A stretch of DNA of 64,000 nucleotides from Polyangia bacterium (GCA_050304755.1 JBNLED010000113.1:4376-68375), one strand, 5' to 3'. Counted from the first letter of the stretch, positions 5,344-61,092 are shown. Made by a program: numbers and translations. The notes: generated from the letters alone by a model not told the origin.

Positions 5344-5451
5344 CTCTCGAATCCTTTCAAGGCCATCTCAAAGGACAAAAGTAATGATGACATGGCTCGG
5401 CGGCATATCAATTGAACCCCTGCAGGGCGAGACGCCGAAGCCCCCGGCGTC

Positions 5452-10338: not shown

Positions 10339-10397
10339 ATTCTCCTCCATCACTATCTTTCTTCCAAAAGTCATCCACGCGAAACAGCGCTCAGGGG

Positions 10398-13667: not shown

Positions 13668-13699
13668 AAACAGATCCTTTCACAGCGAGATCCATCGGG

Positions 13700-31088: not shown

Positions 31089-32756
31089 GTGAAACAGAAG
31101 ACGATCACCCATTCGTGCGTACAGGAGACGGTCCCCCGGCGACCGCCCGACGGCGGGTTCCGATCCGAGCTCTCCTCCGGCATGATCATCGATGAACGCT
31201 ATGAGCTCATCGACTCCCTCGGCCAGGGGGGGATGTCGGAGGTCTTCTCCGCGATGCACCTCACCCTCCGGGAGCCCCGGGCCCTCAAAGTGCTCCCCCA
31301 ATCCTGTGGGGACGACGAGCTGGCGGTTGAGCGATTCACCCGGGAGGCCCGCACCACGGTCCGGCTCAAGCACCCGAACATCGTGGAGGTGAGCGACGCG
31401 GGGGTGGATCAGGCGGGGCACCGCTTCATCGTCATGGAGCTCCTCCGGGGCGAGACCCTCGCCAATTGGATGAAGCGCACCCCCGTGGCGGATCGCGGGG
31501 AGGCCTATATCCGGGAGGTGCTGACCCTGCTGCTCGCGGTCTGCGAGGGGGTGACGGCCATCCACACGGAGGGAGTGCTCCATCGGGATCTGAAACCCTC
31601 CAATATCTTTCTCCACCGGGACGAGGAGGGGCACGTATGCCCGAAGATCCTGGACTTCGGCATCGCCCGGGATCTTCGGTTGGGGGAGGACAAGCTCACC
31701 GTCGCGGGCCAGATCACCGGCAGCATCGACTACGTGTCGCCGGAGCAGATGGAGGAGAAGGAGCCTGACTTCCGGGCCGATGTCTATTCCCTCGGGGTCG
31801 TGTTGTACAACGCCCTCACCGGGGCGACCCCCATGGGGGACACCACCCGGGCCATGATCGTGGTGCGCTCCGTCGACCACAACTACCGGATCATTCCGCC
31901 CAGCCGGCACAACGGGCAGGTGCCGCGATACCTGGATCGCATCACCGCCAAGGCCCTCGAGCGGAACCCGGACAAACGCTACGCCACCGTGAAGGAGCTC
32001 GCCGAGGCCATCGCGCCGCTCCCCGTCATGCACCCGGTGGCGCAGGAGCGCGTCGTCCCGAAGCGCCGGCCCCTGGTCTGGGCCGCGGTCACCGCGGTGC
32101 TCCTGGCGGTCACCGCGGGAGGGGGGCATCTGTGGCTCCAGCGGAGGCACGGACCCCGGGCCGCGGTCGGCGCGCCGTTGAAGACCCCTCCGGTCATCGC
32201 GGCGGACGCCCGGTCTCCGGTTTCAAAGACGCCGATCGCCAAGCCGCCGAGCCCGGAGGCGCCGACGCCGGGAGCCGTCTCGCCCCTCCAATCCCCCGTC
32301 GAACAGGAGCCGCCGCGGCGGACGCCGACGGCCCCTCGTCAGCGTCACCGCGCCATGAAGCCCCCATCATCGAAGCGGGACGCGCCGGACGTGGAGGACC
32401 TCGTAAACGAAGGGTACGCCGAGCTCGGGAACACGAACTACCGAACCGCCGCCGCCCTGTTCGAGCAGGCCGTTGATCAGAACCCGAGGGCGGCCCGCGC
32501 CTGGTTCGGCCTGGCCAGGGTCGCCTTTGAGAACCGGGAGTACACGACAGCCCTCGACAAGATCGACCGGGCGATCCGGTATCGGGATCAGGCGCGGTGG
32601 CGGATCTTCCGGGGGGAGATTCTCCTCGCGAAGGGGGACCGGGACGCCGCCGCCGAAGAGTGGCGACGGGTGCTCGACCGCTCCCCGGAGGACTCGCGGG
32701 CTCGGAAGGTGGCCAACAACCACCTCCGGAAAATCGGCGCGTCGTCGGGAGAGTAA
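31089..32756 (+). CDS. Hanks-type Ser/Thr protein kinase with a C-terminal TPR region
   Basis: The kinase motifs are GQGGMSEV (Gly loop), ALKVL, HRDLKPSNIF, DFGIAR and SPEQ. A transmembrane segment is LVWAAVTAVLLAVTAG. The C-terminal TPR-like segment is AAALFEQAVDQNPRAARAWFGLA.... An alternative start lies at 31182. Confidence 0.85.
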   Translation: MKQKTITHSCVQETVPRRPPDGGFRSELSSGMIIDERYELIDSLGQGGMSEVFSAMHLTLREPRALKVLPQSCGDDELAVERFTREARTTVRLKHPNIVEVSDAGVDQAGHRFIVMELLRGETLANWMKRTPVADRGEAYIREVLTLLLAVCEGVTAIHTEGVLHRDLKPSNIFLHRDEEGHVCPKILDFGIARDLRLGEDKLTVAGQITGSIDYVSPEQMEEKEPDFRADVYSLGVVLYNALTGATPMGDTTRAMIVVRSVDHNYRIIPPSRHNGQVPRYLDRITAKALERNPDKRYATVKELAEAIAPLPVMHPVAQERVVPKRRPLVWAAVTAVLLAVTAGGGHLWLQRRHGPRAAVGAPLKTPPVIAADARSPVSKTPIAKPPSPEAPTPGAVSPLQSPVEQEPPRRTPTAPRQRHRAMKPPSSKRDAPDVEDLVNEGYAELGNTNYRTAAALFEQAVDQNPRAARAWFGLARVAFENREYTTALDKIDRAIRYRDQARWRIFRGEILLAKGDRDAAAEEWRRVLDRSPEDSRARKVANNHLRKIGASSGE

Positions 32757-35671: not shown

Positions 35672-37441
35672 TTGATTCCCGATTCGAAGATCGCCGAAAT
35701 TAGGGAGCGAGCAGATATCGCGGAGATTATTGGCGAATACGTCACACTCCGCCGTGCCGGCGCCAACCTGAAGGGGGTCTGCCCGTTCCACGCCGACTCG
35801 GACCCGTCATTCAATGTCAACCCCGCCCGGCAGTTCTTCCACTGCTTCGGGTGCAGCGTTTCGGGGGATGTCTTCAGCTTCGTTACCCGTATCGAGGGCA
35901 TCGATTTCTATGAGGCCGTCCGTCGGCTGGCGGGCCGCTACGGGGTCTCCCTGCCGACCCCTCAGGTTTCGGACAAGGCGCGGACCCAGGCCGAAAAGGC
36001 GAACCAGGCCCGGAAGCGTCGATACTACATCCTGGAGGAGGCGGCCGCCTTCTTCGAGGCGAGCCTCAAAACGCCGCAGGGGGCGATCGCCCGGGAGGCC
36101 CTCGAAAAACGCGGGGTGGATGACGAAACCGCGGCCCGGTTCCGCCTCGGATACGCGCCGGACGCCTGGTCCGGGCTCATCGATTTCTTTCAACGAAAAC
36201 AAGTATCTCCGAGGGAGCTGGAGACGGTGGGACTGGCGCTGCCGAGGAAGAGCGGCAGTGGCTACTACGACCGGTTCAGGAACCGGCTGATGTTCACCGT
36301 CACCGATCCCACGGGGCGGCCCATCGCCTTCTCCGGACGGGCGCTGAGCCCGGAGGACGCGGAGCGGGGGGCCAAGTACATCAACTCCCCCGAGACCGAG
36401 GAGTACAAGAAGGGGCAGGTGCTCTATGGGCTCCACCAGGCGCGGGTGCCGCTCAGCAAGAGCGGCGTGGCCATCCTCGTAGAGGGCAACTTCGACGTGG
36501 TCTCCCTCTCCGGCGCGGGAATCGAGAACGTGGTCGCCCCCCTCGGAACCGCCCTCACCGCGGAGCAGTCCATGCTGCTGCGGCGGCGGGTGGAGAGCGC
36601 GGTGGTGATGTTCGACGGCGACAACGCGGGAAGAAAGGCCGCGGCTCGCGCGTTTCAGGTGCTGGCGAAGGCCTCCCTCGCCAGCTATACGGCGCCGTTG
36701 CCGGCGGGAGAGGATCCGGACAGCCTGGTGCGCAGCATCGGGCGGGAGGGGGTTGAAAGAATAATCTCGGGGAAGGTCGGCCTATTGGACCAGATTATTT
36801 CAGATACCGTCGCGGCATGTGACGGCAGCGCCCAGGACAGGGCCCGTCGCATCGAGAAGCTCAAGCCCTTCATCGACGCATTGACCTCCATGGTCGAAAA
36901 GGATCTCTATCGAGGGAAGATCGCGGAGGCTTTCGGCGTGGAAAACCGCGTTGTCTTCAGAGCCCTGAGCGGGAGTCGGCCATCCGACACCCCCCCGTCG
37001 GAGCACCTCAAGAGGGATCTGCCGGGCAAATCGGAGGAGCGAGAGCTCATCGGCCTGCTCCTCGATTTTCCGACCTTACTGGAACGAGTACAGAACGAGG
37101 GGATCGTCCGGCTCATCTCCACCCCCCCGATCAAGCGGGCGGTGGAGCGGATGGTGGCGCTCTCGGAAACCCGCGCGGCGTCCGTGTCCGATCTCATCGA
37201 GGCGGCGGAAGACGCCGTCACCGGCGCGTGGATCGCGGAGCGGGCGTTGGTCTGCCATTACGAGGACGAGGAAAAAGCCCTCCAGGCGTTCTCAGAGACA
37301 GCAGTGAAGCTGACCCAGAAACCGATAAAGGAGCAAATCCGGGAGCTGGACCAGCAGATACGGCTGGCCAGCTCCAACGGCGATGACAACCGTGTCCTCG
37401 AATTGTCCAGAAAAAAAGCTGATCTTCGGGGGTTATATTGA
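35672..37441 (+). CDS. dnaG: DNA primase
   Basis: The start is TTG with a GAGGG ribosome-binding site. The zinc ribbon is CPFHADSDPSFNVNPARQFFHCFGC. The TOPRIM region is ILVEGNFDVVSL and MFDGDNAGRKA. Confidence 0.9.
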   Translation: MIPDSKIAEIRERADIAEIIGEYVTLRRAGANLKGVCPFHADSDPSFNVNPARQFFHCFGCSVSGDVFSFVTRIEGIDFYEAVRRLAGRYGVSLPTPQVSDKARTQAEKANQARKRRYYILEEAAAFFEASLKTPQGAIAREALEKRGVDDETAARFRLGYAPDAWSGLIDFFQRKQVSPRELETVGLALPRKSGSGYYDRFRNRLMFTVTDPTGRPIAFSGRALSPEDAERGAKYINSPETEEYKKGQVLYGLHQARVPLSKSGVAILVEGNFDVVSLSGAGIENVVAPLGTALTAEQSMLLRRRVESAVVMFDGDNAGRKAAARAFQVLAKASLASYTAPLPAGEDPDSLVRSIGREGVERIISGKVGLLDQIISDTVAACDGSAQDRARRIEKLKPFIDALTSMVEKDLYRGKIAEAFGVENRVVFRALSGSRPSDTPPSEHLKRDLPGKSEERELIGLLLDFPTLLERVQNEGIVRLISTPPIKRAVERMVALSETRAASVSDLIEAAEDAVTGAWIAERALVCHYEDEEKALQAFSETAVKLTQKPIKEQIRELDQQIRLASSNGDDNRVLELSRKKADLRGLY

Positions 37442-37503
37442 TATTCGAGCCAAATATTTGACCGAGGCGCGTCCTCGGACTAGACCAAGCAAGAGGCTTG
37501 TGA

Positions 37504-39351
<1,848 letters not shown>

Positions 39352-39355
39352 GCCA

Positions 39356-40759
39356 ATGACACTCTCAGACGAACACTTTCACGACGAATGCGGGGTATTC
39401 GCCATCGTGGGGAACCCCGAAGCCTCAAATCTCGCCTATCTCGGGCTCCACGGGCTGCAGCACCGCGGCCAGGAGAGCGCCGGGATGGTCACCTCCGACG
39501 GCAGCCGGCTCCACGCCTACCGGCGGATGGGGCTCGTGGGGGACATCTTCTCCCCCGAGGTCCTCGGCCGGCTTCCGGGAGACCGGGCCATCGGCCACGT
39601 GCGCTACTCCACCGCCGGCGGGACGGAGCTCTACAACGCCCAGCCGTTCATCGTCCACTTCGGCAAGGGGTCCATCGCGGTGGCCCACAACGGCAACCTG
39701 ACCAACGCCATCATGCTCCGGGAGGAGATGGAGCGGCTCGGCGCCATCTTCCAGTCCACTACCGACACCGAGGTGCTCGTGCACCTCATCGCCCGCTCCG
39801 GGGCCAACATGATGGACGCCATCAGCTACGCCCTCTACCGGGCCCACGGATCGTACTCCATCCTCTTCATGACCGAGAAGCTCCTCGTGGCGGCGCGGGA
39901 TCCCTACGGCATCCGGCCCCTCTGCCTGGGCCGGCTCGGGGACGGCTGGGTGCTCTCGTCGGAGTCGGTGGCGTTCGATCTCATCGGCGCGACCTTCGAG
40001 CGGGACGTGGTCCCCGGAGAATTCCTGGTATTCAAGGAGAACGGGGAGCCGGAGAGTCTCCGTCCCTTCCCCGAGCGCCCCTGCCGCGTCTGCCTGTTCG
40101 AGTACGTCTACTTCGCGCGGCCGGACAGCATCATCGACGGGCGCTCTGTCTACCACTCGCGCAAGGAGATGGGCCGCATCCTGGCGGAGGAGTCCAAGGT
40201 GGAGGCGGATATCGTCATCGCGGTGCCGGACTCGGGGACCGCGGCCGCCCTGGGGTTTGCGGAGGCCGCCGGGATCCCCTTCGAGCTGGGGCTCATCCGG
40301 AGCCACTACGTGGGCCGAACCTTCATCGAGCCCAAGCAGTCCATCCGCAACTTCGGCGTCCTCCTCAAGCTGAACCCCTCCCAATCCGTGCTGAACAACA
40401 AGCGGGTGGTGGTGGTGGACGACTCGCTGGTCCGGGGCACCACGTCGCGGAAGATCGTCGAGAACCTCCGGCGAGCCGGCGCACGGGAGGTGCACTTCCG
40501 CGTCAGCTCCCCCCCCATCAAGCACTCCTGCCGTTACGGCATCGACACCCCCACGGATGAGGAGCTCATCGCCAACACCACGTCCGTCGAGGAGATCAAG
40601 GATATCATCGGCGTCGATTCCCTGGCCTACCTCTCCCAGGACGGGCTCAAGCGCGCGGTGGGGGGCGACGGCTTCTGCACCGCCTGCTTCGACGGCGACT
40701 ACCCCATCGACTTCCCCGATCAGGGGCGAAAGCTCCAGCTCCGGTTCGAGGGGCTGTAA
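39356..40759 (+). CDS. purF: Amidophosphoribosyltransferase
   Basis: The N-terminal nucleophile Cys motif is [19 protein letters not shown]. The PRT motif is [19 protein letters not shown]. The C-terminal segment is Cys-rich. The gene starts 4 nt after the rpoD stop codon. Confidence 0.88.
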
Positions 40760-40789: not shown

Positions 40790-41944
40790 TCACAGACAAC
40801 ACCTGTAGATGGTCTCTATCAGCGGCTCGGTGTAATCGGTCATCCGCCGCTGGACAAACGCGCGGGACGCCAGCCGGACCAGCCGGTCGATATCCGGGCT
40901 CGGGGTTCCGGCTTCGGCGAAGGTCACCGGGGTGCCGATGTGCCGGTAGTAGCGACGGAGGGCCTCCGCGAGCGCCTCCGGAGAGCCCGTCTCTCCGAAC
41001 ACCGCCTCGAAGAAGCGACCGATGCGCCTTTCGTGCCGCTCGCCGACCACCCGGATCCACGCGGGGATGACCACGGAGAGCCCGGCGCCGTGGGGCATGT
41101 CGTAGACGGCGCTCATCGGCATCTCCAACGCATGGCAGGGCATGGAGGGATCGGGGATACCGGCCTGACAGATGCCGCTCCAGCCCAGGGTGGCCGCCCA
41201 CATGAACGCCGCCCGGGCGTCGTAGTCGTCGGGGCGCGCCAGGAGGGTCTCCATGGCCTCCACGGTGCCCCGGGCCACCCCCTCGATGAGGTTGTCCTGC
41301 ATCGGCAGCCGTTCGGCGGGGGTGGTGAAGTAGGCCTCCATCACGTGGGAGAGGATATCCGTGCAGGCGAAGGCGGTCTGCCGCGGCGGCAGGGAGAAGG
41401 TGGTCTCGGGGTCGAGGAACGACACCCGGGGGTTCAGCACGCCGGGGCAGACCAGGGCGTTCTTCTCCGCGGTCTCCTCGTTGGTCACGACGGTGATGCC
41501 GTTCATCTCCGAGCCGGTGGCGGGGAGGGTGAGTACGGCGACCAGCGGGAGAGGGGATTTGGGCGCGGCCCGTCCGGCGAAGAGCTCCCAGACATCCGCC
41601 CGAATCCCGGTCCCCGCGGCGATGGCCTTGGCCTCGTCGATGACGCTGCCGCCGCCGACCCCGCACACCCCGTCCACGCTCTCGGCCCGCGCCGTCTCGA
41701 TGCCCGCCCGCACATGGGAGAGCACCGGGTTTCCGCGGACCCCGGGGTGCTCCACGACGGTGACGCCGCGACTCTTCAGCGAGGTCGCCACGGTCTCGTA
41801 CACTCCGTTTCTATGGATGCTCCCGCCGCCGTAGACCAGCAGGACCTTCTTTACGCCGAGACGCCTGAGGGCGATCCCGAGGCGGGGGATCACCCCCCGG
41901 CCGAACTGGATCTCCGTCGGGTTGACATAGGTGAACGGTTTCAT
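40790..41944 (-). CDS. Iron-containing (group III) alcohol dehydrogenase
   Basis: The product MKPFTYVNPTEIQFGRGV... has a Gly-rich NAD motif (GGGSVIDEAKAIAAG) and His-rich metal-site motifs. The length of 384 aa is typical. Confidence 0.8.
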   Translation of the reverse strand: MKPFTYVNPTEIQFGRGVIPRLGIALRRLGVKKVLLVYGGGSIHRNGVYETVATSLKSRGVTVVEHPGVRGNPVLSHVRAGIETARAESVDGVCGVGGGSVIDEAKAIAAGTGIRADVWELFAGRAAPKSPLPLVAVLTLPATGSEMNGITVVTNEETAEKNALVCPGVLNPRVSFLDPETTFSLPPRQTAFACTDILSHVMEAYFTTPAERLPMQDNLIEGVARGTVEAMETLLARPDDYDARAAFMWAATLGWSGICQAGIPDPSMPCHALEMPMSAVYDMPHGAGLSVVIPAWIRVVGERHERRIGRFFEAVFGETGSPEALAEALRRYYRHIGTPVTFAEAGTPSPDIDRLVRLASRAFVQRRMTDYTEPLIETIYRCCL

Positions 41945-44900
41945 CGATTCCTCCCTTCCTGGTCGAGTCGTGTCATCATCTTCTGCAGGCCGTACCGGGA
42001 GACGCCGAGGAGCTTGGCCGCGGCGGTCTGGTTTCCCTCGGTTCGCTTGAGGGCGGCGGCGATGAGGCGCCGCTTCAGACGATCCACCTGCCGGGACATA
42101 TCGAGATCGATAGTGGCCTCCGAGAGGCGGCTGACGTCGGAGACGATCTCCTCCGAGAGGTGGGAGAAGTCGATGACATCGCCCGAGAGCACCAACGCCC
42201 GGATGATCTCGTTCTCCAGCTGTCGGACATTTCCGGGCCAGTGGAAGTCCATGAGGGCTTCGATGGCCGCCTTGGAGATCTGCTTCCGTTTCCGGCCGCG
42301 GTGCTTCTGAATGAAGTGGTCCGCCAGGAGGGGAATATCCTCCCGCCGCTTTCGGAGCGGGGGCAGCTCGATGCGGATGACGTTCAGCCGGTAGAAGAGA
42401 TCCTCCCGGAATGATCCCTGCTTAACCCGGGCCTGCAGACCCATGTTGGACGCCACCAGGATGCGCACGTCCACCCGAACGGTCCGGGCGCCGCCCACGG
42501 GGCGCACCTCGCCGTCCTGGAGCACGCGGAGCAGCTTGGTCTGCATGGAGAGGGGCATCTCGGCGATCTCGTCCAGAAACAGGGTCCCGCCGTCGGCCTC
42601 GACGAAGAGCCCCCGGTTGTCGGAGACCGCGCCGGTGAACGCCCCCTTGACGTGGCCGAACAGCACCGACTCCAGCAGGGTCTCGGGGATGGCCGCACAG
42701 TTCTCCGCCACGAAGGCCTTCCGCTTCCTTCGCCCGTTGAAGTGGATGGCCCGGGCCGCCAGCTCCTTGCCTGTACCGGACTCCCCTTCGAGGATCACCG
42801 GGACATCCCCGTCCACCACCTTGTCGAGCACGCGGAACACCTCGGCCATGGGCTTGGATCGGGCGACGATATCATCGTACCGGTACTTGGTGATCAGCTC
42901 GTCCGTGCGCTTCTCCAGCTCCCCGCGGACCCTGGCGAGCTCCCCCTCCCGGGTCTTCAGCTCGGACTCCAGCTCCCGGTTCAGCCGCTCGATGCGCTGC
43001 TGCCGCTGGCGGTTCTCCGCCCTCAGGCGAGCGTTGGTGAGGGCGATGGCCGCCTGGGTGGCCAGGGCCTCCAGGAGCGCGATGCGCCCGTCGTCGAAGC
43101 GCCCCCCGCGCCGGCTGTCGAGATAGATCGTGCCGATGACGGTCCCCCTGACCCGGAGGGGAACCGCGACGATGTACCGGAGGTTCAGGTTGACCACGCT
43201 CAACCGGTCGTGGAACCGCTCGTCCTCCGACGCGTCGGTGGTGAGCACCGGCTCCCCGAGGGTGAAGGCCCGCTTCGCCACAGTTCGTGAGAAGCTCCGC
43301 TCCCCCGGGACGAGGGACTGCTGATCCATGTTCCGCGCGCTTCGGACCTCGAGGTCGTCCGCGCCGTTGACGATGAGCAGGAAGCCCCGCTCTGCGCCCG
43401 TGATATCGACGGCCGCGTCCATGATCATGTCGAGAAGCCGCCCCACACGGACCTCCGAATTGAGGCGCGCGTTGATTCGGACCAGGTGCTCCCAGCTCGC
43501 CTCGAAGGGCGACTTGGAGGCGGCGCTGTCGGTATCCGCGATCATCTTCATCTCCTTGAGCAGTGAGGTCTCCTCCGGGCGGTGGATCGCCGGAGTCTGC
43601 GCCCGTGTCCAGTGAATGAGCTGCACCGCCGACCGGGCCAGGGCGCCGGCGTGATCGGAGAGGCGGAGCTTCGAGGCGCACCGCGCGGCGGTGACGAAAG
43701 CCCTCACATGGTCCGATCGCAGGGGCTCCCCGGGAGCCGGGAGCGAATCGAACAGCGCGTCGAACGCGGGCCGCGGCTCTCCGGCGCCGAGGAGGGCCGC
43801 CTCGACCATCAGCCGCCGGTGCTCCAGGTGGAGAAAGGGGGCTTCGTCCCGACCGGCGGTCACCTGGGCGAGCCACTCGGAGGCCCGGCGGCGATCCCCC
43901 TGCTTCAGCCCCAGGGCGGCGAGGTGCAGCCGGCTGGTGGCGAGCTCCTGGGCAGCCCCGGCCTTCGAGGCGACCGCCTCTGCCTCGGAGAGGACGGTCT
44001 TCGCGGCCTTGAGCTTCCCGAGGTGAATCAGTACGTCCCCTTGCACACAGAGCGCCAGGGCCAGCGCCCGCCGGTCGTCCGAGCGCTTCGCGTCCGCCAC
44101 GGACCGTCCCGAGGCCGACTGGGCCGTGTCGACATCCCCGATGCGCAACAGGAGCTCCGCGTAGTTCGCCCCGGCCCGGGCGATCTCCGAGGGACGACCG
44201 ATGATCCGCAGCATCCTGAGACCGCTCCGGTAGGCCGCGAGGGCGTCCGGGATGCGGCCCAGCTCCGTCAGGGCCGCCGCGAGGTTCACCGCATAGGTCG
44301 CGCCGCCGTGGCGGTCTCCGGCCCGCTCAGCCAGGTCCAGGGCCGCCTGATAGCTCGCGAGGGCCCGATGCCACTTTCCGGCGGTATGGAACACCATCCC
44401 GAGGAGCCCGTTGAACCGCGCCAGCGTTCTGAGATCCCCGAGGGTCACGGCGATGTCCAGCCCGGCTTCGAAGAGCGCCCGGGCCTGCTCGGTCTCTCCC
44501 CGGGCGAGGGCGATGAGTCCGCGGGTGGAGAGGGCGCCTGTGCGGACCGGATCGGCGGCCCGAAGGTCATCAATCCCCTCGAGAAGGACGGCGGCGGCGG
44601 CGAGGTCTCCGCTGTCGAAGGCGGTCCTGGCGGCGATGGCCCGGGCCTCCGCCGCGACCTCCGCGGACCTCGACCGCATGAGGTCGTCGAGCAGGGACGC
44701 GGCCTCATCGGCGGCGCCGGCCAGTCTAAGGGCCGCCGCGCGCTCGAGGGTGGCCCTCGGCGCCAGGGCGCCGCCCCGCTCCTCGACCTCGCGGGCCAGC
44801 GAGATGGCCCGATCGTATTGGCCGGTCTGTCGGCACACCTTCGCGAGCTCGGTCTGCACCGCGCTCCGCTCTTCGGGCGGAAGCGCCATCCCGGCGAGCA

Positions 44901-46971
44901 GGGTCAGCTGGTCCGCCGCCCCCAGGAGGTCCCCCGAGGCCCGCAGCACCGCGGCCCCCGCCCTCGCGAATTCCGCGGCCTTCTCCGTCATCCCGGCCTG
45001 GGCGGCGTATCGGGCCAGCCGGCCCGGATCGCGAAAGGGGCGTCGCTCCAGAACAGCGAGGACGGCGGTGCTCAACGCGCGGGTGCGCGACGGGGTGAGG
45101 GTCCGTCTGAGTCCGGCGGCGACCAGCCTCTTGAGGATGAGCTCGCCGTCATTCCGGTGGAGCCATCCCTTCCGTTCCAGCTCGCGAATCGCTGAAAAGA
45201 GATCGTCGACTTCCTTTATATTGGCGATTATTGCGAGCTCATCGCCGGTGGCGGGACCGTCCAGCACCGCGAGAGACTCCGCGACGGCCAGCGCCGGAGC
45301 AGAGAGCCCCTCCAGAAATCCCTCGAGGATCAGGTCATCCAGGGTATCGGACAGATCCAACGACTCGAGGCTCTTAGCCGCGACTATCCCGTCCGGCCGG
45401 AGCGCCAGGAGCGCCGCCAGAGCGGCCTCCGTGAGCAGCGGAAGCCCCCCGGTCATCTGATGGAGACGCTCCGCCATGCGATCATCGGGAGCCCGCCCCA
45501 GCGCGTGGCGGATGATCGCTCGTTCGTCATCCGCGCCAAGCGGCGACACCGGAATCCGCGCCGGCCCACCGCCCGGCTCGGCGGTGTCGCGGTCGGAGGT
45601 ATCCCGACGCTCCGCGGCGATGGCCAGCGCTTCCCCGTCCGCAGGCAGCCCGTTCAGCCGCCGGATCAGCTCCCCCACCAGAGGAGAATCCCCGTCTTCA
45701 ATCAGCACCGCGCTCGGGTGCTTCAGCCGGAGCAGGGTGTCCGCGATCTCCGCCAGAAGGGCGTCGTGCCCCGGCTCCCCGGCGCGCTTCTCGTCCGAGA
45801 CCACGCCGCTGATCCAGGTGGACAGATGGTGCAAAGAGCCTCCCCGCGAGGGGGCAATCCGCCGCATCAGCTCCCGGAGGGAGCCCGAGAAGAAGCTCAT
45901 GGGCCTGTCCCCGTTTCTGACCGCCGCCAGTTGGGCCTCCACCACCGCCGCGCGGAAGAGTCGGGTCTTGCCGACGCCGGGAGCCCCCGCCAGCCACAGG
46001 GTTCGGGTCGTTCGGTGGTCGTCGTCCGAAGAGGCCGCGCCTTCCAGCCATTTCACGAGGAGGGAGAGCTCCCCGTCTCTCCCCACCAGGTTCGGAGAGC
46101 GAACGCGGGCCGCCCGGGTGGTGGGGGTGGCGGTGTCGCTGGCCGCATCGATGAGCTCGGTCCGCTGGTCGTCCCCGAGCACCCCGGCCCCCGCGGCTCG
46201 GGCCAATGCGAGGAGGGTCTCCCGCGCGGATTGGGGGCGCCGCTCCGGCAGCGGATGGACAAGCTTCGCGGTCAGCTCCCAGAGCTTCGCGGGGACATGT
46301 GCCGGCGCGGGCCCGATGGGTCCGGCCACCAAGGGCGGCGCCTCTCCGGTTAGGAGCTCCCGAAGGGTGACGCCGAGGCTGAACAGGTCGGAGCGCTCGT
46401 CGAAGAAGCCATGGAGGGCCTCCGGGGGAGTGTACCCCAGGGTGCCCGCCCTGAGCCCGTCGAGGGCATCCTTGTGCGTCGAGAGGCCGAGGTCGATAAG
46501 CTTGACGAGCTTTCCGCCGTTCCCCACCAGGATGTTCGAGGGTTTGACGTCCCGGTGGAGCAGGCCGTGTCCGTGGATGAGCTCCAGGGCCCGTGCCACC
46601 GCCACGCAGAGCGCGGCCGCCCGGGCGGGGCGTTCCGCCTTCGGCAGGCCGGAGAACTGAAGCTGGCACGATTCTCCCGGGACGAGCTCCTGGGTGAAGA
46701 ACACCGCGCCCTTCGGGATGGTCAGCGCGCCGTCAATCGACTGAACGACATCGAGATCGTACACCCGGGCGAGGTGAGGGTGCTCGAGCCGCTTGGCCTG
46801 CGCGAACTCGAATCGGAACAGGGACTCCATCGACGCCTCGTGGAGCACCTTGAGCGCCACCCGTTCGTTCCCACCGAGAGTATCCTCCACCGCCAGCACC
46901 ATCGCCTGGGCGCCCCTGCCGAGCTCACGGACGACCCGGTATCGATGGTTGATGATGTCGCTTTTGCTCAT
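41941..46971 (-). CDS. Multidomain regulator (about 1676 aa) with an N-terminal Ser/Thr kinase, an AAA/NACHT-like P-loop, a TPR-rich region, a GAF domain, a sigma-54-interaction AAA+ domain and a Fis-type HTH
   Basis: The start ATG 46971 has a GAGGA ribosome-binding site. The kinase motifs are ELGRGAQAMV, ALKVL, HRDVKPSNILV and DLGLS. The P-loop is WLAGAPGVGKTRLF. The sigma-54 module contains VLILGESGTGKELAARAIH, GAFTGA, GTLFLDEI and FREDLFYRLNV. The HTH is NQTAAAKLLGVSRYGLQKMM. Confidence 0.8.
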   Translation of the reverse strand: MSKSDIINHRYRVVRELGRGAQAMVLAVEDTLGGNERVALKVLHEASMESLFRFEFAQAKRLEHPHLARVYDLDVVQSIDGALTIPKGAVFFTQELVPGESCQLQFSGLPKAERPARAAALCVAVARALELIHGHGLLHRDVKPSNILVGNGGKLVKLIDLGLSTHKDALDGLRAGTLGYTPPEALHGFFDERSDLFSLGVTLRELLTGEAPPLVAGPIGPAPAHVPAKLWELTAKLVHPLPERRPQSARETLLALARAAGAGVLGDDQRTELIDAASDTATPTTRAARVRSPNLVGRDGELSLLVKWLEGAASSDDDHRTTRTLWLAGAPGVGKTRLFRAAVVEAQLAAVRNGDRPMSFFSGSLRELMRRIAPSRGGSLHHLSTWISGVVSDEKRAGEPGHDALLAEIADTLLRLKHPSAVLIEDGDSPLVGELIRRLNGLPADGEALAIAAERRDTSDRDTAEPGGGPARIPVSPLGADDERAIIRHALGRAPDDRMAERLHQMTGGLPLLTEAALAALLALRPDGIVAAKSLESLDLSDTLDDLILEGFLEGLSAPALAVAESLAVLDGPATGDELAIIANIKEVDDLFSAIRELERKGWLHRNDGELILKRLVAAGLRRTLTPSRTRALSTAVLAVLERRPFRDPGRLARYAAQAGMTEKAAEFARAGAAVLRASGDLLGAADQLTLLAGMALPPEERSAVQTELAKVCRQTGQYDRAISLAREVEERGGALAPRATLERAAALRLAGAADEAASLLDDLMRSRSAEVAAEARAIAARTAFDSGDLAAAAVLLEGIDDLRAADPVRTGALSTRGLIALARGETEQARALFEAGLDIAVTLGDLRTLARFNGLLGMVFHTAGKWHRALASYQAALDLAERAGDRHGGATYAVNLAAALTELGRIPDALAAYRSGLRMLRIIGRPSEIARAGANYAELLLRIGDVDTAQSASGRSVADAKRSDDRRALALALCVQGDVLIHLGKLKAAKTVLSEAEAVASKAGAAQELATSRLHLAALGLKQGDRRRASEWLAQVTAGRDEAPFLHLEHRRLMVEAALLGAGEPRPAFDALFDSLPAPGEPLRSDHVRAFVTAARCASKLRLSDHAGALARSAVQLIHWTRAQTPAIHRPEETSLLKEMKMIADTDSAASKSPFEASWEHLVRINARLNSEVRVGRLLDMIMDAAVDITGAERGFLLIVNGADDLEVRSARNMDQQSLVPGERSFSRTVAKRAFTLGEPVLTTDASEDERFHDRLSVVNLNLRYIVAVPLRVRGTVIGTIYLDSRRGGRFDDGRIALLEALATQAAIALTNARLRAENRQRQQRIERLNRELESELKTREGELARVRGELEKRTDELITKYRYDDIVARSKPMAEVFRVLDKVVDGDVPVILEGESGTGKELAARAIHFNGRRKRKAFVAENCAAIPETLLESVLFGHVKGAFTGAVSDNRGLFVEADGGTLFLDEIAEMPLSMQTKLLRVLQDGEVRPVGGARTVRVDVRILVASNMGLQARVKQGSFREDLFYRLNVIRIELPPLRKRREDIPLLADHFIQKHRGRKRKQISKAAIEALMDFHWPGNVRQLENEIIRALVLSGDVIDFSHLSEEIVSDVSRLSEATIDLDMSRQVDRLKRRLIAAALKRTEGNQTAAAKLLGVSRYGLQKMMTRLDQEGRNR

Positions 46972-47211
46972 CGATTCCTCTGACTGATGCGCACCCATCA
47001 AATAGCAACTTTGTTGCCATAGACTCCAGCAAGTTGACGCTAAACTCATTATAAAGACAAGATAACGAATATCAAACGATTGAATGACACCAGACCCGAA
47101 TGCATGGCAACTGGATTGTCACACCCGACGGATCCTCGGCCATTGTCCCCGGATTCCGCAATCGACCCCAGCCGCCTTGTGGACGGCTTCCCCCGATGAT
47201 ACACAAGTTTT

Positions 47212-53390: not shown

Positions 53391-56300
53391 ATGTCGATTC
53401 TAAAGCGCGTCTTTCCCTTCCTCACCTGGTTCGAGAAGTACACCCTTGCCACGCTCCGCGCCGACTTCATTTCCGGCCTGACCGTCGCCCTGGTGCTGGT
53501 TCCCCAGTCCATGGCGTATGCCCAGCTGGCCGGCCTTCCGGCGTACTACGGCCTGTACGCCGCCTTCCTCCCGCCGGTGATCGCGAGCCTCTTCGGATCC
53601 AGCCGGCAGCTGGCCACCGGACCGGTGGCCGTGGTCTCCCTGATGACCTCGGCCTCCCTCGAGCCCCTCGCCACCGCCGGGAGCGAGCAGTTCATCGCCT
53701 ACGCCCTGCTGCTGGCCCTGATGGTGGGCGTGTTCCAGTTCTCCCTGGGCATCCTGAAGCTCGGCGTGGTGGTCAACTTCCTGTCCCACCCGGTGGTCAA
53801 CGGGTTTACCAACGCGGCAGCGCTCATCATCGCCACCTCGCAGCTCTCGAAGATCTTCGGCGTGTACGTGGACAAGGCCCCGCACCACTACGAGACCATC
53901 TACCGCATCTTCCTGGCGGCGGTCCACTACCTCCACTGGCCCACTTTGGCCATGGCCACCCTCTCCTTCCTCACCATGATCGCGCTCCGCCGCGTCAACA
54001 AGCGCATCCCCCAGGTGCTCATCGCGGTGGTCATCACCACGGTCATCGCCTGGGTCGCGGGCTTCGAGCAAAACGCGGTCGTCGGCGCGGGTCGAATTGA
54101 ATCCCCCGAGGTGAGGACGCTCATCGATCGCTTCAACGAGGCCGTCCACGCCCGCGAGGTGTTCGAGATCCAACGGGGCGAGGACAAGAAGACCTGGACC
54201 GCTCTCACGACGGATCGGCGGGAGCTGTGCGCGCGGTGTCACGACGCCCCGGACATGGCGCATCTCAACGGCGGGATACACTCGACCGCCGCCGCCCACG
54301 AGAAGGAGCTCCTCGTGCTGCACGATCTGGCCGGTCTGTTCGACGATCACATCGCGCACGTCAAGCAAACCATCTCCGCCCGCCGCGGCGAGCTCCGCGC
54401 CCTGCTGCTGGAGCGCGCGACCGCCGAGGACGGCCCGCGATTCTATCTCCCGGGGGAAGCGCCCGAGGATCTCCCGGTGGACGGCGCCTGGCGGATCGCC
54501 GTAGGGGACAAGCCCCTGAACCCCGAGGCGCTGAAGCTCGCCGGCGGCGGCGCCGTGGTGGGGAGCATCCCCGAGGGGTTGCCCGGATTCAAGAAGCCCG
54601 TCCTCGACTGGAATATCATCGGCGAGCTGGCGGCGGCGGCGATCATCATCTCGCTGCTCGGCTTCATGGAGGCCATCTCCATCGCCAAGGCCATGGCCGC
54701 CCGGACCCGGCAGAAGCTCGATCCCAACCAGGAGCTCATCGGGCAGGGGCTGGCCAACATCCTCGGCTGCTTCGGCCAGAGCTACGCGGTGTCGGGATCC
54801 TTCTCCCGATCGGCGGTCAACTTCCAGTCCGGGGGGCGGACCGGTGTGTCCAACGTCTTCTCGAGCCTCTTCGTGATGGTGGTGCTCCTCTTCCTGTCGA
54901 AGGGCCTCTACCACCTCCCCCAGGCGGTGCTCGCCTCGGTCATCATGATGGCGGTCTTCGGGCTCATCAACGTCGGCGGCTTCGTCCATGCCTGGCGGAC
55001 CAGCCGGTTCGACGGCGCGGTGACCCTCATCACCTTCGTCGGCACCTTCGTCTTCGCCCCCCACCTCGAGTGGGGCATCTGCATCGGCGTGGTGCTCTCC
55101 CTCGGCGGGTACCTCTACCGCACCATGCGGCCCAAGGTCATCACCCTCGCCCCCCACCGGGACGGGGCGATGATGGACATCAAACGGCACGGGCTCAAGA
55201 GCTGCCGCCACATCGCCGTGGTGGGCTTCGACGGCCCGCTCAACTTCGCCAGCACCAACTACCTGGAGAGCGCCATCCTCTCCCGCGTCCTGAAGTTCCC
55301 GGAGCTGAAGCACCTGCTCATCTCGGGCAACGGCGTCAGCGAAATCGACGCCTCCGGGGAGGAGACCCTCCGGAACCTGGTGGACAACCTCACCGACACG
55401 GGCTGCGCGGTCTCCTTCTCCGGTTTCTCCGACAAGATCATCGACGTCCTCAAGCGATCCCACTTCTATGATCGGGTCGGGGAGGGGAGCTTCTTCCGGA
55501 ACCGCGCCCAGGCCATCGCGGCGATCTACCCGGCGGCCCACGCCGACAGCCAGGAGGAGGAGTGCCCCTACCGGCTGATCATGCCGCCCCTGGTGGAGCT
55601 GTCGCTGCACGAGGACGGATCGCTGCGGAACGCGGAGCATCACCTCCTGCGCACCTGCCGCCACATCACGGTGCTCCGCTTCGACGGGCCGTTGACCTTC
55701 GCCAACGCCGCCTACATGGAGCAGGAGATCCTCGCCAGCCTGACGGACCGGCCGTCCATCAGCCACGTGCTGCTCGTGGCCCACAGCATCAACCGCATCG
55801 ACGACTCCGGCGCCGAGAAGCTGGGGGAGCTCGTCACCCGCCTTCGGAAGGACGGCTACGCGGTCGCCTTCAGCGGGCTCAAGGAGGAGGTCGTCCACGT
55901 CCTCGAGCGCACCCGTGTGGCCGAGGTCATCGGCTTGGAGAACCTGTTCCCGACGCAGGTGGTGGCGGTCGCGGGGATCTACGCCCGCGCCCATATGGGC
56001 TCCTCCGAGACGGACTGCCCCCTCGTGGACCTCTCTCACCGGCTCACCGAGCTGTCGCTCACCGAGAGCGGGAGCCTCAGAAGCGCCGAACGGCTCGGGC
56101 TCGGGCTGTGCCGCCATATCGCCGTGCTCCGGTTCGACGGGCCGCTGCCCCTCTCCCACTTCAGGGCGAGCCAGTCCGAGTTCATCCGATGGGCCAAGAC
56201 GAGGCCGGAGGTGGAGAACATCGTCTTCGCGGGGCAGGCCCTCGACAAGATGGATCGCGTCGAGGCCGAGAACCTGGCGGCCCTCGTGGCCGCGGTCCGG

Positions 56301-60956: not shown

Positions 60957-61092
60957 CTATGGGGCCCCCGGAATATAAATCAGCAGAAGTCGAGGAGATC
61001 GCGCTTTCATGATAATGGGATAACATTGATGAGTATAAACGCAACACCCATGCCATGGTAACACACGCAAAGAGCGCCCGCCCGGGGAAGAC

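What the first reader, a model, noticed from the sequence alone, without database searches (positions are those of the whole stretch)
41941..46971. Ser/Thr kinase fused to a complete sigma-54 enhancer-binding protein through an AAA/TPR/GAF scaffold in a 1,676-aa single polypeptide
Hanks kinases fused to AAA+TPR scaffolds usually end in LuxR-type or no DNA-binding output. Here the C-terminus is a bona fide sigma-54 activator AAA+ domain (GESGTGKE, GAFTGA) followed by a Fis HTH. A GAF domain takes the place normally occupied by the receiver domain. This would couple eukaryote-like kinase signalling directly to sigma-54 promoter activation in one protein, with no two-component phosphorelay.
Basis: partly seen in the sequence, partly recalled or inferred. 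Interest (0 to 1): 0.65.

Follow-up and report, generated by a model that had tools for sequence, protein, structure and literature searches.

The report
Kinase–STAND–GAF–sigma-54 activator fusion protein
The giant gene is real and encodes one protein joining an apparently active Ser/Thr kinase, a MalT-like molecular switch and a complete sigma-54 transcription activator, but this architecture is already common in public myxobacterial-type genomes and noted in the literature, though nobody has tested how it works.

Summary
One uninterrupted minus-strand ORF (41941-46971, 1,676 aa; possibly 1,685 aa from ATG 46998) encodes Pkinase, a MalT-like STAND NTPase, TPR, GAF, a sigma-54 AAA+ domain (GESGTGKE, GAFTGA) and HTH_8.

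It is not an assembly artefact. At least 20 full-length orthologues (45-57% identity, 1,654-1,698 aa) have the same order, and all 120 listed relatives but one carry both a kinase and a sigma-54 domain.

It is not new. Sorangium and Polyangia genomes carry it, annotated "sigma 54-interacting transcriptional regulator". A 2025 review describes kinase-COG3899-FhlA architectures. No experimental study was found.

Both enzymatic ends look functional: the kinase catalytic residues are canonical in 113 of 120 relatives, and GAFTGA or GSFTGA is present in 109 of 120.

The target regulon is unknown and neighbouring genes are not conserved. The sigma-54-like match upstream of the gene is not conserved either.

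What is conserved is a pair of CAAC-N3-GTTG palindromes about 100 bp apart in front of the orthologues. I read these as a likely autoregulatory operator.

The mechanism (STAND/GAF-gated hexamer assembly, kinase as feedback or second output) is inferred. Verdict: new member of a known but uncharacterised kind; moderate interest.

The parts
41941..46971 (-). Whole ORF, 1,676 aa (alternative start ATG 46998 gives 1,685 aa)
   Evidence: Searches show no internal stop. It is identical to P0001 and has full-length orthologues. GC3 is 0.87.
46162..46941 (-). Hanks-type Ser/Thr kinase domain (residues about 11-270). Key residues: K41, E55, HRD 139-141, N146, DLG 160-162, T177, E184, R245.
   Evidence: Pfam Pkinase 90 bits. 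K41, E55, H139, D141, D160, E184 and R245 are invariant in 23 orthologues; N146 and T177 are >=90% conserved. K/D/N/D is canonical in 113 of 120 relatives.
44872..46089 (-). STAND nucleotide-binding oligomerisation module (residues about 295-700: P-loop NTPase, helical domain, winged helix). Walker A GAPGVGKT 329-336; Walker B VLIEDGD.
   Evidence: AAA_16 scores 27.7 bits here (below the cut-off) but 35-63 bits, above it, in five orthologue-clade relatives. The AF2 model has pLDDT 89.4. Top Foldseek hit is MalT 8bob_C (E 2e-8, TM 0.55), followed by Avs3, Apaf-1, PH0952 and CED-4.
43522..44871 (-). TPR sensor superhelix (residues about 701-1150)
   Evidence: TPR_MalT 47.2 bits and TPR_12. The AF2 model of residues 270-1170 has pLDDT 86.8 and shows regular helix pairs. 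Top hit is the STAND-TPR protein 6mfv (E 1.1e-14).
43039..43440 (-). GAF domain (residues 1178-1311)
   Evidence: GAF, GAF_2 and GAF_3 at 53-70 bits. It aligns to the NifA GAF domain in 9qq6.
42871..43038 (-). Charged helical linker, about 56 aa (residues 1312-1367), probably a coiled coil
   Evidence: Read directly from the sequence and conserved in orthologues. No coiled-coil predictor was run, so this is an inference.
42130..42870 (-). Sigma-54 interaction AAA+ domain plus lid (residues 1368-1614). Motifs: GESGTGKE 1396-1403, GAFTGA 1443-1448, Walker B D1467/E1468.
   Evidence: Sigma54_activat 221 bits and AAA_lid_14 76 bits. The motifs are conserved in 23 orthologues (all invariant except A1444, >=90%). 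PDB hits are ZraR, NtrC1, FleQ and PspF.
41980..42072 (-). Fis-type HTH_8 DNA-binding domain (residues 1634-1664)
   Evidence: HTH_8 33.1 bits, above the cut-off of 22. The recognition helix LG(L/V)SR(Y/F)GLQKM is nearly identical across the orthologue clade.
47006..47016 (.). Box 2: palindrome CAAC-N3-GTTG (extended form ATGGCAAC-AAA-GTTGCTAT, 47002-47021), 34 nt upstream of ATG 46971
   Evidence: The same motif lies at -13 to -16 from the start codon in 8 of 9 orthologous loci, and it is non-coding there.
47108..47118 (.). Box 1: a second copy of the palindrome (CAAT-CCA-GTTG), 102 bp upstream of box 2
   Evidence: the repeat finder family D1. Orthologues carry CCAAC-N3-GTTGACA at -110 to -118, overlapping a TTGACA -35-like hexamer.
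47048..47075 (-). Sigma-70-like promoter TTGATA-16-TATAAT (11 of 12 positions)
   Evidence: 3 sites found against 0.5 expected in shuffles. This is a consensus match only.
47005..47019 (-). Sigma-54-like match TGGCAACAAAGTTGC (1 mismatch), coincident with box 2
   Evidence: The GG/GC dinucleotides are not conserved in orthologues, and in them the start codon follows immediately. It is probably not a conserved sigma-54 promoter.
40790..41944 (-). Downstream iron-containing alcohol dehydrogenase gene. Its start overlaps the stop of the big gene (ATGA) and it has its own GGGAGGAA Shine-Dalgarno sequence.
   Evidence: Fe-ADH 147.6 bits and the sequence itself. It is not found next to the orthologues.

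Best explanation
The gene encodes a cytoplasmic one-polypeptide signalling hub. It belongs to an old, conserved family found mainly in Polyangia/Sorangium-type Myxococcota.

Output module (the last ~500 residues). This is a complete NifA/FhlA-type enhancer-binding protein: GAF, helical linker, sigma-54 AAA+ domain with GAFTGA, and a Fis-type HTH. It should bind DNA, assemble into a ring, hydrolyse ATP and remodel sigma-54 RNA polymerase into an open complex.

Input modules. Upstream lie a MalT-like STAND NTPase with a ~450-residue TPR sensor and, at the N-terminus, a catalytically competent Hanks kinase.

Proposed working, all inferred:
1. In the resting state the ADP-bound closed STAND module and the GAF/linker dimer keep the sigma-54 AAA+ domains from forming a ring.
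2. An unknown ligand binds the TPR and/or GAF sensor. This opens the STAND module, allows nucleotide exchange and drives oligomerisation.
3. Oligomerisation raises the local concentration of the AAA+ domains, so the ring assembles at the enhancer. It also brings the kinase domains together, so they trans-autophosphorylate.
4. The kinase then acts as feedback on its own protein or as a second, post-translational output.
5. The protein probably regulates its own gene through two CAAC-N3-GTTG palindromes about 100 bp apart in its promoter and leader.

Shown here: the intact ORF, the domain folds, the integrity and conservation of the motifs, and the conserved palindromes. Inferred: every regulatory step, the ligand, the kinase substrates and the sigma-54 regulon.
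For: - Intact ORF and domain order.
- The C-terminal module aligns to solved NifA over residues 1162-1659 (E 4.5e-76) and to ZraR, NtrC1 and PspF.
- In 23 orthologues, GESGTGKE, GAFTGA, D1467/E1468, the conserved arginines, the kinase residues K41/E55/D141/D160/E184/R245 and the STAND Walker A glycines G329/G332/G334 are invariant or >=90% conserved.
- Across 120 relatives, 113 keep canonical K/D/N/D and 109 keep GAFTGA or GSFTGA, so both ends are under purifying selection.
- AF2 models are confident (pLDDT 86.8 and 89.4). The best folds are MalT 8bob (TM 0.55), the STAND-TPR protein 6mfv, Avs3 and Apaf-1.
- The scaffold sequence matches over its whole length only proteins of ~1,650-1,715 aa or fragments of them; the six such proteins scanned with Pfam all show this same architecture.
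- The palindrome pair is conserved in position in 10 loci, although their flanking genes differ, and it is missing from two relatives at 35-37% identity.
- Precedent: M. xanthus PexR is a GAF-AAA+-HTH bEBP. Its GAF domain inhibits the AAA+ domain, and it binds interrupted palindromes both over a sigmaA promoter (repression) and upstream of a sigma-54 promoter (activation) (PMC12754779).
Against: - No sigma-54 gene lies in the window and no convincing target promoter was found. TGGCAC-N5-TTGC matches are no more frequent than chance.
- No neighbouring gene is conserved that would point to a regulon.
- Nothing shows that the kinase and the bEBP module communicate.
- STAND oligomers and bEBP hexamers may have incompatible symmetry.
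- The palindromes could be bound by another conserved regulator. Box 1 partly coincides with a -35 hexamer and box 2 with the Shine-Dalgarno/start region in orthologues, which could explain part of their conservation.
- AAA_16 is below the Pfam cut-off in this particular protein.
Confidence: 0.6

Rival explanations
1. The kinase is the obligatory switch: autophosphorylation, or phosphorylation in cis of the GAF/linker/AAA+ region, replaces receiver-domain phosphorylation and turns the sigma-54 activator on. The STAND-TPR region serves only as a scaffold.
For: The kinase catalytic set is invariant and the fusion is stably inherited. From general knowledge, not checked here: Ser/Thr kinases act in trans on FHA-containing enhancer-binding proteins in Myxococcus (Jelsbak et al. 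2005).
Against: The STAND Walker A motif and the sensor TPRs are also conserved, which argues for an active switch rather than an inert scaffold. No conserved Ser/Thr acceptor stands out in the linker, and there is no FHA domain. In 72 of 120 relatives the HRD motif is HGD (non-RD), a type that usually does not depend on activation-loop phosphorylation.
Confidence: 0.25
2. The C-terminal module works mainly as a DNA anchor or repressor, independently of sigma-54 (as with TyrR, or PexR at ahpC). It tethers a kinase/STAND machine to specific loci.
For: The conserved palindromes overlap a sigma-70-type -35 box and the translation start, which are positions typical of repression rather than activation. 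PexR provides a precedent for dual behaviour.
Against: GAFTGA, Walker A/B and the arginine fingers are strictly conserved. That would not be expected if contact with sigma-54 and ATP hydrolysis were dispensable.
Confidence: 0.1
3. It is an antiviral STAND (Avs-like) or other conflict system, with the kinase as effector.
For: Avs3 is the second-best fold match for the NOD. Kinase-domain hits to PD-T4-6, Mad6 and MkoA models appear in PADLOC.
Against: - The PADLOC hits cover only the generic kinase or bEBP domains, and no system-level partner is present.
- MalT is the better fold match.
- Orthologues are single genes in housekeeping neighbourhoods (dnaG-rpoD-purF, rpsP-rimM-trmD), with no defence-island context.
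- There is no nuclease, protease or TIR effector domain.
Confidence: 0.03
4. It is an assembly or sequencing artefact that joins two adjacent genes.
For: None was found. The window comes from a metagenome-type contig whose read coverage cannot be inspected.
Against: More than 20 independent assemblies give the same full-length protein with the same length and domain order, including complete Sorangium genomes.
Confidence: 0.01

Closest known systems
GAF-type bacterial enhancer-binding proteins (NifA, FhlA, NorR, M. xanthus PexR)
   Same: The last ~500 residues have the same GAF-linker-AAA+(GAFTGA)-HTH_8 order. The best solved relative is NifA 9qq6 (E 4.5e-76). The best NCBIfam hit is nifA at 356 bits. 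The GAF domain is expected to inhibit the AAA+ domain, as in NorR and PexR.
   Different: It scores below every equivalog cut-off, so it is not NifA, FhlA or NorR itself. It carries about 1,170 extra N-terminal residues (kinase, STAND, TPR). The GAF ligand is unknown.
MalT-type STAND NTPases (E. coli MalT; Pyrococcus PH0952, 6mfv)
   Same: The NOD fold (P-loop, helical domain, winged helix) is followed by a TPR/SUPR sensor. Foldseek gives 8bob E 2e-8 with TM 0.55 and 6mfv E 1.1e-14. TPR_MalT is above its cut-off.
   Different: The output is a sigma-54 AAA+ activator instead of a LuxR HTH. There is also an N-terminal kinase and an intervening GAF domain.
Mycobacterium tuberculosis PknK-type kinases (kinase + MalT-like region)
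   Same: An N-terminal Hanks kinase is followed by a MalT-like ATPase/TPR region (described in PMC1262709). JGI labels several family members 'PknK'.
   Different: PknK has no GAF-sigma-54-HTH output.
Cyanobacterial 'dual protein kinases' (HstK type: Ser/Thr kinase ... GAF-HisKA-HATPase)
   Same: A kinase at the N-terminus and a GAF domain in front of the output module, in one giant cytoplasmic protein (PMC1262709).
   Different: There the output is a histidine kinase; here it is a sigma-54 activator. No HisKA or HATPase_c domain was found.
CP1 family of bacterial Ser/Thr (pseudo)kinases linked to COG3899, often with FhlA or PAS (PMC12599244; bioRxiv 10.1101/2025.01.12.632604)
   Same: The described architecture, kinase-COG3899 ATPase-FhlA (GAF-sigma-54-HTH), without a transmembrane segment, matches this protein.
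   Different: About 40% of CP1 members are pseudokinases. This protein and 113 of 120 relatives keep all catalytic residues. Whether its kinase domain carries the CP1-specific constraint residues could not be tested.
Myxococcus xanthus FHA-domain enhancer-binding proteins controlled by Ser/Thr kinases in trans
   Same: The same logic: Hanks-kinase signalling feeding sigma-54 activators in myxobacteria. This comes from my own knowledge of Jelsbak, Givskov & Kaiser 2005 and was not checked here. Cascades of EBPs are cited.
   Different: Here the kinase and the activator are one polypeptide, and there is no FHA domain.

Membership tests
Sigma-54 enhancer-binding proteins (bEBP; PF00158) | AAA+ domain with Walker A GxxGxGK and Walker B DE | tested here: met
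   Sigma54_activat 221 bits. GESGTGKE 1396-1403 and D1467/E1468 are invariant in 23 orthologues.
Sigma-54 enhancer-binding proteins (bEBP; PF00158) | GAFTGA loop that contacts sigma-54 | tested here: met
   GAFTGA at residues 1443-1448. GAFTGA or GSFTGA is present in 109 of 120 relatives.
Sigma-54 enhancer-binding proteins (bEBP; PF00158) | C-terminal Fis-type HTH for enhancer binding | tested here: met
   HTH_8 33.1 bits against a cut-off of 22.
Sigma-54 enhancer-binding proteins (bEBP; PF00158) | rpoN in the genome and a sigma-54 target promoter with an upstream enhancer | tested here: inconclusive
   No RpoN box lies in the window. Only two matches with <=1 mismatch occur in 64 kb, against 3.2 expected. 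One is upstream of this gene but is not conserved. The other is upstream of a second bEBP gene. The rest of the genome is not available.
NifA (TIGR01817 equivalog) | Score above the equivalog cut-off | tested here: not met
   356.2 bits against a cut-off of 528.85. It is NifA-like in architecture only.
Hanks-type Ser/Thr protein kinases | Catalytic residues: Gly-loop, VAIK Lys, alphaC Glu, HRD Asp, catalytic-loop Asn, DFG Asp, APE Glu | tested here: met
   G20, K41, E55, H139-R140-D141, N146, D160 (as DLG), E184 and R245, all invariant except N146 (>=90%) in 23 orthologues. Pkinase 90 bits.
Hanks-type Ser/Thr protein kinases | Phosphotransfer activity | not testable with these tools
   Needs an in vitro kinase assay.
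STAND NTPases (MalT-like) | P-loop NTPase + helical domain + winged-helix NOD | tested here: met
   AF2 model of residues 285-700, pLDDT 89.4. Foldseek hits: MalT 8bob_C (E 2e-8, TMq 0.55), Avs3, Apaf-1, 6mfv and CED-4. Walker A glycines G329/G332/G334 are invariant and K335 is >=90% conserved. AAA_16 is below the cut-off here (27.7 against 32.6) but above it in the orthologues P0127, P0129, P0158, P0167 and P0223.
STAND NTPases (MalT-like) | C-terminal repeat sensor domain | tested here: met
   TPR_MalT 47.2 bits against a cut-off of 45. The model shows a TPR superhelix, and the top fold hit is 6mfv.
STAND NTPases (MalT-like) | Ligand-induced, nucleotide-dependent oligomerisation | not testable with these tools
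   Needs biochemistry.
CP1 bacterial STK family (bSTK atlas) | Kinase physically linked to a COG3899 ATPase, often with FhlA or PAS, and no transmembrane segment | tested here: met
   The architecture matches the description in PMC12599244.
CP1 bacterial STK family (bSTK atlas) | Family-specific constraint residues in the kinase domain | not testable with these tools
   Neither the constraint patterns nor the family model is available here.
HstK-type dual kinases | C-terminal HisKA + HATPase_c | tested here: not met
   No HisKA or HATPase_c hit.
Avs / antiviral STAND defence systems | Effector domain (nuclease, protease, TIR etc.) and a match to a defence model over the STAND/sensor region | tested here: not met
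   PADLOC hits cover only the kinase or bEBP domains. Pfam finds no effector domain.

The most novel reading that the evidence does not exclude
The family is a self-contained, autoregulated signalling device in which two different oligomerising ATPase engines sit in one chain. Ligand-driven assembly of a MalT-like STAND module licenses ring formation of a sigma-54 AAA+ activator. This would be a mode of bEBP control not yet described, distinct from phosphorylation, GAF/PAS ligand binding and anti-activators. The same assembly would fire a Hanks kinase as a parallel post-translational output. The conserved CAAC-N3-GTTG pair would be its own enhancer or operator, and so the key to finding its regulon.
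Probability: 0.25. Interest if true: 0.6.

Novelty: new member of a known kind. Interest (0 to 1): 0.35.

Why it matters
If the kinase, the STAND switch and the sigma-54 activator really talk to each other within one chain, this family would be a natural example of eukaryote-like kinase and NLR/MalT-like signalling wired directly to sigma-54 transcription. It would also add a new way of gating enhancer-binding proteins.

The family is abundant in Sorangium and Polyangia, organisms known for huge kinomes and natural products, yet no member has been studied. The conserved palindrome pair found here gives a concrete, cheap entry point: it supplies a candidate binding site for EMSA and for genome scans.

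As a discovery, though, the architecture itself is already in the databases and has been mentioned in print. The value lies in characterising it, not in its existence.

Tried and rejected
1. Sigma-54 promoters in the window. TGGCAC-N5-TTGC gives 35 hits with <=2 mismatches against 48 expected, and 2 hits with <=1 mismatch against 3.2 expected. There is no enrichment. The hit upstream of the gene coincides with a palindrome, and its GG/GC dinucleotides are not conserved in orthologues. In the orthologues the start codon also follows too closely for a sigma-54 start site. I rejected it as a conserved promoter.

2. Synteny to find targets. Twelve related loci were examined. No downstream or upstream gene is conserved, and the Fe-ADH is specific to this genome. 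An ECF-sigma/FecR pair lies near three orthologues, and dnaG-rpoD-purF lies near one orthologue and near the window gene.

3. The genome-contig scan was swamped by generic Acidobacteriota bEBPs through the MDFHWPGN pattern. It gave only one full-length relative (L001), and the source genome is not in that collection.

4. The word-indexed search with the scaffold alone found nothing useful because of the low-complexity Ala-rich TPRs. The exhaustive representative search replaced it.

5. A 90-sequence alignment failed.

7. Perez et al. 2008 (myxobacterial kinome) is not held. I recall that the So ce56 genome papers mention kinase-EBP fusions, but I could not verify this.

8. The exact look-up of P0001, RpoD and Fe-ADH returned no organism names, and the look-up of encoding contigs had no record of P0001.

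9. Rfam found nothing in the leader.

10. The defence-system reading was rejected.

11. Other exact CAAC-N3-GTTG sites in the window (7767, 25008) lie inside genes, so they do not point to targets.

Full report

Yes. The six-frame ORF list shows one open frame, 41941..47049, on the minus strand. Its translation has no internal stop. A protein with exactly this sequence is already in NCBI-derived data (P0001, on a 78.9-kb contig).

Pfam confirms the proposed domain order:
- Pkinase 11-212
- AAA_16 295-455 (weak, 27.7 bits, below the gathering score)
- TPR_MalT 817-1069 and TPR_12
- GAF 1178-1311
- Sigma54_activat 1368-1535 (221 bits)
- AAA_lid_14 1540-1614
- HTH_8 1634-1664

Third-position GC is 0.87 over the whole frame, as in neighbouring genes.

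It fails. Nineteen proteins of 1,654-1,698 aa from independent assemblies align end to end at 45-57% identity. Read coverage itself could not be inspected.

The start codon is slightly uncertain. ATG 47049 overlaps the -10 hexamer of a strong sigma-70-like promoter (TTGATA-16-TATAAT, 11 of 12). ATG 46998 (MGAHQSEES-MSKSD...) lies at the same distance from a conserved upstream palindrome as the orthologues' start codons, but it has no Shine-Dalgarno sequence.

**2. What the parts are**

*C-terminal module.* Residues 1162-1659 align to solved NifA (9qq6_C, E 4.5e-76). The AAA+ core aligns to ZraR, NtrC1, FleQ and PspF. NCBIfam ranks nifA first, but at 356 bits against a cut-off of 529, so this is a NifA/FhlA-type GAF-bEBP and not NifA itself. 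GESGTGKE, GAFTGA and Walker B D1467/E1468 are conserved in 23 orthologues (all invariant except A1444, >=90%). Between GAF and AAA+ lies a ~56-residue charged helical segment (residues 1312-1367). I read it as a coiled-coil linker, which is an inference from the sequence.

*Middle region.* The sequence alone finds only TPR proteins in the PDB, so I modelled it.
- Residues 270-1170 gave pLDDT 86.8 and pTM 0.79. Foldseek's best hit was the STAND-TPR protein PH0952 (6mfv, E 1.1e-14), followed by Avs3.
- The NOD alone (residues 285-700) gave pLDDT 89.4. Its best match was E. coli MalT (8bob_C, E 2e-8, TM 0.55), followed by Avs3, Apaf-1, 6mfv and CED-4.
- With the invariant Walker A glycines (G329, G332, G334; K335 >=90%) and an hhhhED Walker B, this is a MalT-like STAND NTPase with a TPR sensor.

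*Kinase.* G20, K41, E55, H139-R140-D141, N146, D160 (as DLG), T177, E184 and R245 are invariant or nearly so in the orthologue set. Across the 120 best relatives, 113 keep the canonical K/D/N/D set and 109 keep GAFTGA or GSFTGA. Both enzymatic ends are therefore under purifying selection, and the kinase is predicted to be active rather than a pseudokinase.

**3. How common is it, and is it known?**

The word-indexed search returned 242 proteins with E <= 1e-20. Of the 120 listed, all but one (P0110) carry both a kinase (Pkinase/PK_Tyr_Ser-Thr) and a Sigma54_activat domain. Nearly all also have GAF and HTH_8, at lengths of about 1,350-2,090 aa.

They include more than 20 cultured Sorangium species, where NCBI names them "sigma 54-interacting transcriptional regulator". 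They also include Polyangia, Nannocystaceae and Sandaracinus MAGs and a few Planctomycetes. JGI names some of them "PknK".

An exhaustive phmmer search with the scaffold alone (residues 270-1170) against 1.84 billion representatives found only about 16 clusters that match over its whole length. All are ~1,650-1,715 aa or fragments. The six I scanned have the same architecture. This scaffold was therefore seen only inside this fusion, which is old and stably inherited.

In the literature, a 2025 review of bacterial pseudokinases states that CP1-family kinases are always linked to a COG3899 ATPase and frequently to FhlA (that is, GAF-sigma-54-HTH) or PAS (PMC12599244). It builds on the bSTK atlas preprint. 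Krupa & Srinivasan (2005) describe the related PknK (kinase-MalT) and cyanobacterial kinase-GAF-histidine-kinase proteins.

I found no experimental work on any kinase-sigma-54 fusion. The architecture is catalogued but uncharacterised.

**4. Surroundings**

Downstream, an iron-containing alcohol dehydrogenase gene (40790-41944) starts inside the stop codon of the big gene (ATGA) and has its own GGGAGGAA Shine-Dalgarno sequence. In this genome the two genes are probably co-transcribed.

Further on lie purF, rpoD and dnaG on the other strand. Upstream and divergent is a poorly supported ORF with a weak SPOR hit.

In twelve related loci, no neighbour is conserved. The Fe-ADH is unique to this genome. 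One orthologue also sits beside dnaG-rpoD-purF, and three lie near an ECF-sigma/FecR pair. Synteny therefore gives no regulon. PADLOC gives only domain-level hits, so a defence role is unlikely.

**5. Promoters and a conserved operator**

TGGCAC-N5-TTGC is not enriched in the window.

The only two matches with <=1 mismatch both lie just upstream of, and co-oriented with, the two bEBP genes of the window:
- 47019-47005, before this gene.
- 61055-61041, about 85 nt before a PAS-sigma-54-HTH gene at 59616-60956.

The second looks like a genuine candidate. The first coincides with a palindrome, and comparison with orthologues shows that the palindrome is what is conserved, not the GG/GC dinucleotides. 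In the orthologues the start codon follows within 1-7 nt, which leaves no room for a sigma-54 start site.

The conserved element is CAAC-N3-GTTG (extended form ATGGCAAC-N3-GTTGCCAT), and it occurs twice.
- Box 2 lies at -13 to -16 from the start codon.
- Box 1 lies at -110 to -118, overlapping a TTGACA -35-like hexamer.
- The spacing between the boxes is 96-102 bp.
- Both boxes occur in 7 of 9 orthologous loci, and one box in each of the other two.
- In the window the two copies are 47108-47118 and 47006-47016, 102 bp apart. The repeat finder detected them independently.

Over about 210 kb of window and locus sequence, 14 of 21 exact occurrences lie within 300 nt upstream of this gene family, where about 0.2 per locus is expected. 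Box 2 is non-coding in the orthologues.

Two relatives at 35-37% identity, and L001 at about 40%, lack the exact motif. No Rfam family matches the leader.

The flanking genes differ between loci, and the HTH recognition helix is nearly identical within the clade. The simplest reading is therefore autoregulation by the protein's own HTH. M. xanthus PexR is a precedent: it binds interrupted palindromes over a sigmaA promoter and upstream of a sigma-54 promoter (PMC12754779). A different conserved regulator is not excluded. Part of the conservation may also reflect the -35 hexamer and the Shine-Dalgarno/start region.

**6. Mechanism**

Shown:
- one intact polypeptide;
- a kinase with a complete catalytic set;
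- a MalT-like STAND NOD with an intact P-loop and a TPR sensor;
- a complete GAF-bEBP with GAFTGA and an HTH;
- purifying selection on all of these;
- a conserved palindrome pair in the promoter and leader.

Inferred, and my preferred model:
1. The STAND/TPR module and the GAF-linker keep the sigma-54 AAA+ domain unassembled.
2. An unknown ligand opens the STAND module and drives oligomerisation.
3. This assembles the AAA+ ring at enhancer DNA and juxtaposes the kinase domains for trans-autophosphorylation.
4. The kinase then serves as feedback or as a second output.
5. The protein represses or tunes its own promoter through the two boxes.

It remains possible, but it is not favoured. The STAND switch is equally conserved, no acceptor site or FHA domain is evident, and 72 of 120 relatives are non-RD (HGD) kinases.

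**7. Verdict**

It is a new member of a catalogued, widespread but experimentally untouched architecture, not a new kind of system.

Interest is moderate (0.35). A specialist in myxobacterial signalling would not be surprised that it exists. However, the family is a good, testable model for direct coupling of a Hanks kinase, a STAND switch and sigma-54, and the conserved operator found here offers a practical handle.

Noticed in passing
window 47002-47019 and 47104-47121; L081-L088 and L091 upstream regions: A pair of CAAC-N3-GTTG palindromes (extended form ATGGCAAC-N3-GTTGCCAT) lies about 100 bp apart upstream of the gene. Their positions are conserved in orthologues at >=45% identity even though the flanking genes differ. 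The motif is absent from relatives at 35-37% identity. It is a candidate autoregulatory operator or enhancer.
   Followed up: partly
window 59616-60956 (-) and 61041-61055 (-): A second, small enhancer-binding protein (PAS, Sigma54_activat with a GAFTDA variant loop, HTH_8). The best sigma-54 promoter match of the window (TGGCATGGGTGTTGC) lies about 85 nt upstream of its start. This suggests a sigma-54-dependent bEBP gene, as in myxobacterial EBP cascades.
   Followed up: partly
window 46998 vs 46971: The database start (ATG 46971) may be 9 codons short. ATG 46998 (MGAHQSEES...) has the same spacing to box 2 as the orthologues' start codons, and two orthologues also begin with MG. However, only ATG 46971 has a Shine-Dalgarno sequence.
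   Followed up: partly
window 40790-41944 (-): An iron-containing alcohol dehydrogenase gene overlaps the stop codon of the big gene (ATGA). This pairing was not found in any of the twelve related loci examined.
   Followed up: yes
window 35672-40759 (+); L084 573-5692: A dnaG-rpoD-purF cluster lies next to the gene. The same cluster lies next to one orthologue (P0007), but on the opposite side and in the opposite orientation. This indicates local rearrangement around a shared neighbourhood.
   Followed up: partly
window 1609-19153 (-): Four consecutive giant ORFs (1,244, 1,799, 1,089 and 1,817 aa) have high GC3 and almost no Pfam hits. The exception is 5452-10851, which has Dictyostelium-type CTDC repeats and a Laminin_G_3 domain. 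GC drops to 0.58 at 18-22 kb, just beyond them.
   Followed up: no
window 53391-56960 (+): An unusually long (1,189 aa) SulP-family protein with two Sulfate_transp stretches and three STAS stretches. It looks like a tandem fusion or duplication.
   Followed up: no
window 31089-32756 (+): A separate Ser/Thr kinase with C-terminal TPRs (555 aa), consistent with a kinase-rich Myxococcota-type genome.
   Followed up: no
family-wide (P0001-P0120): The HRD motif is HGD (non-RD) in 72 of 120 family members, but HRD in the clade containing the window protein. P0110 lacks the kinase catalytic residues and carries a GGDEF domain instead.
   Followed up: no
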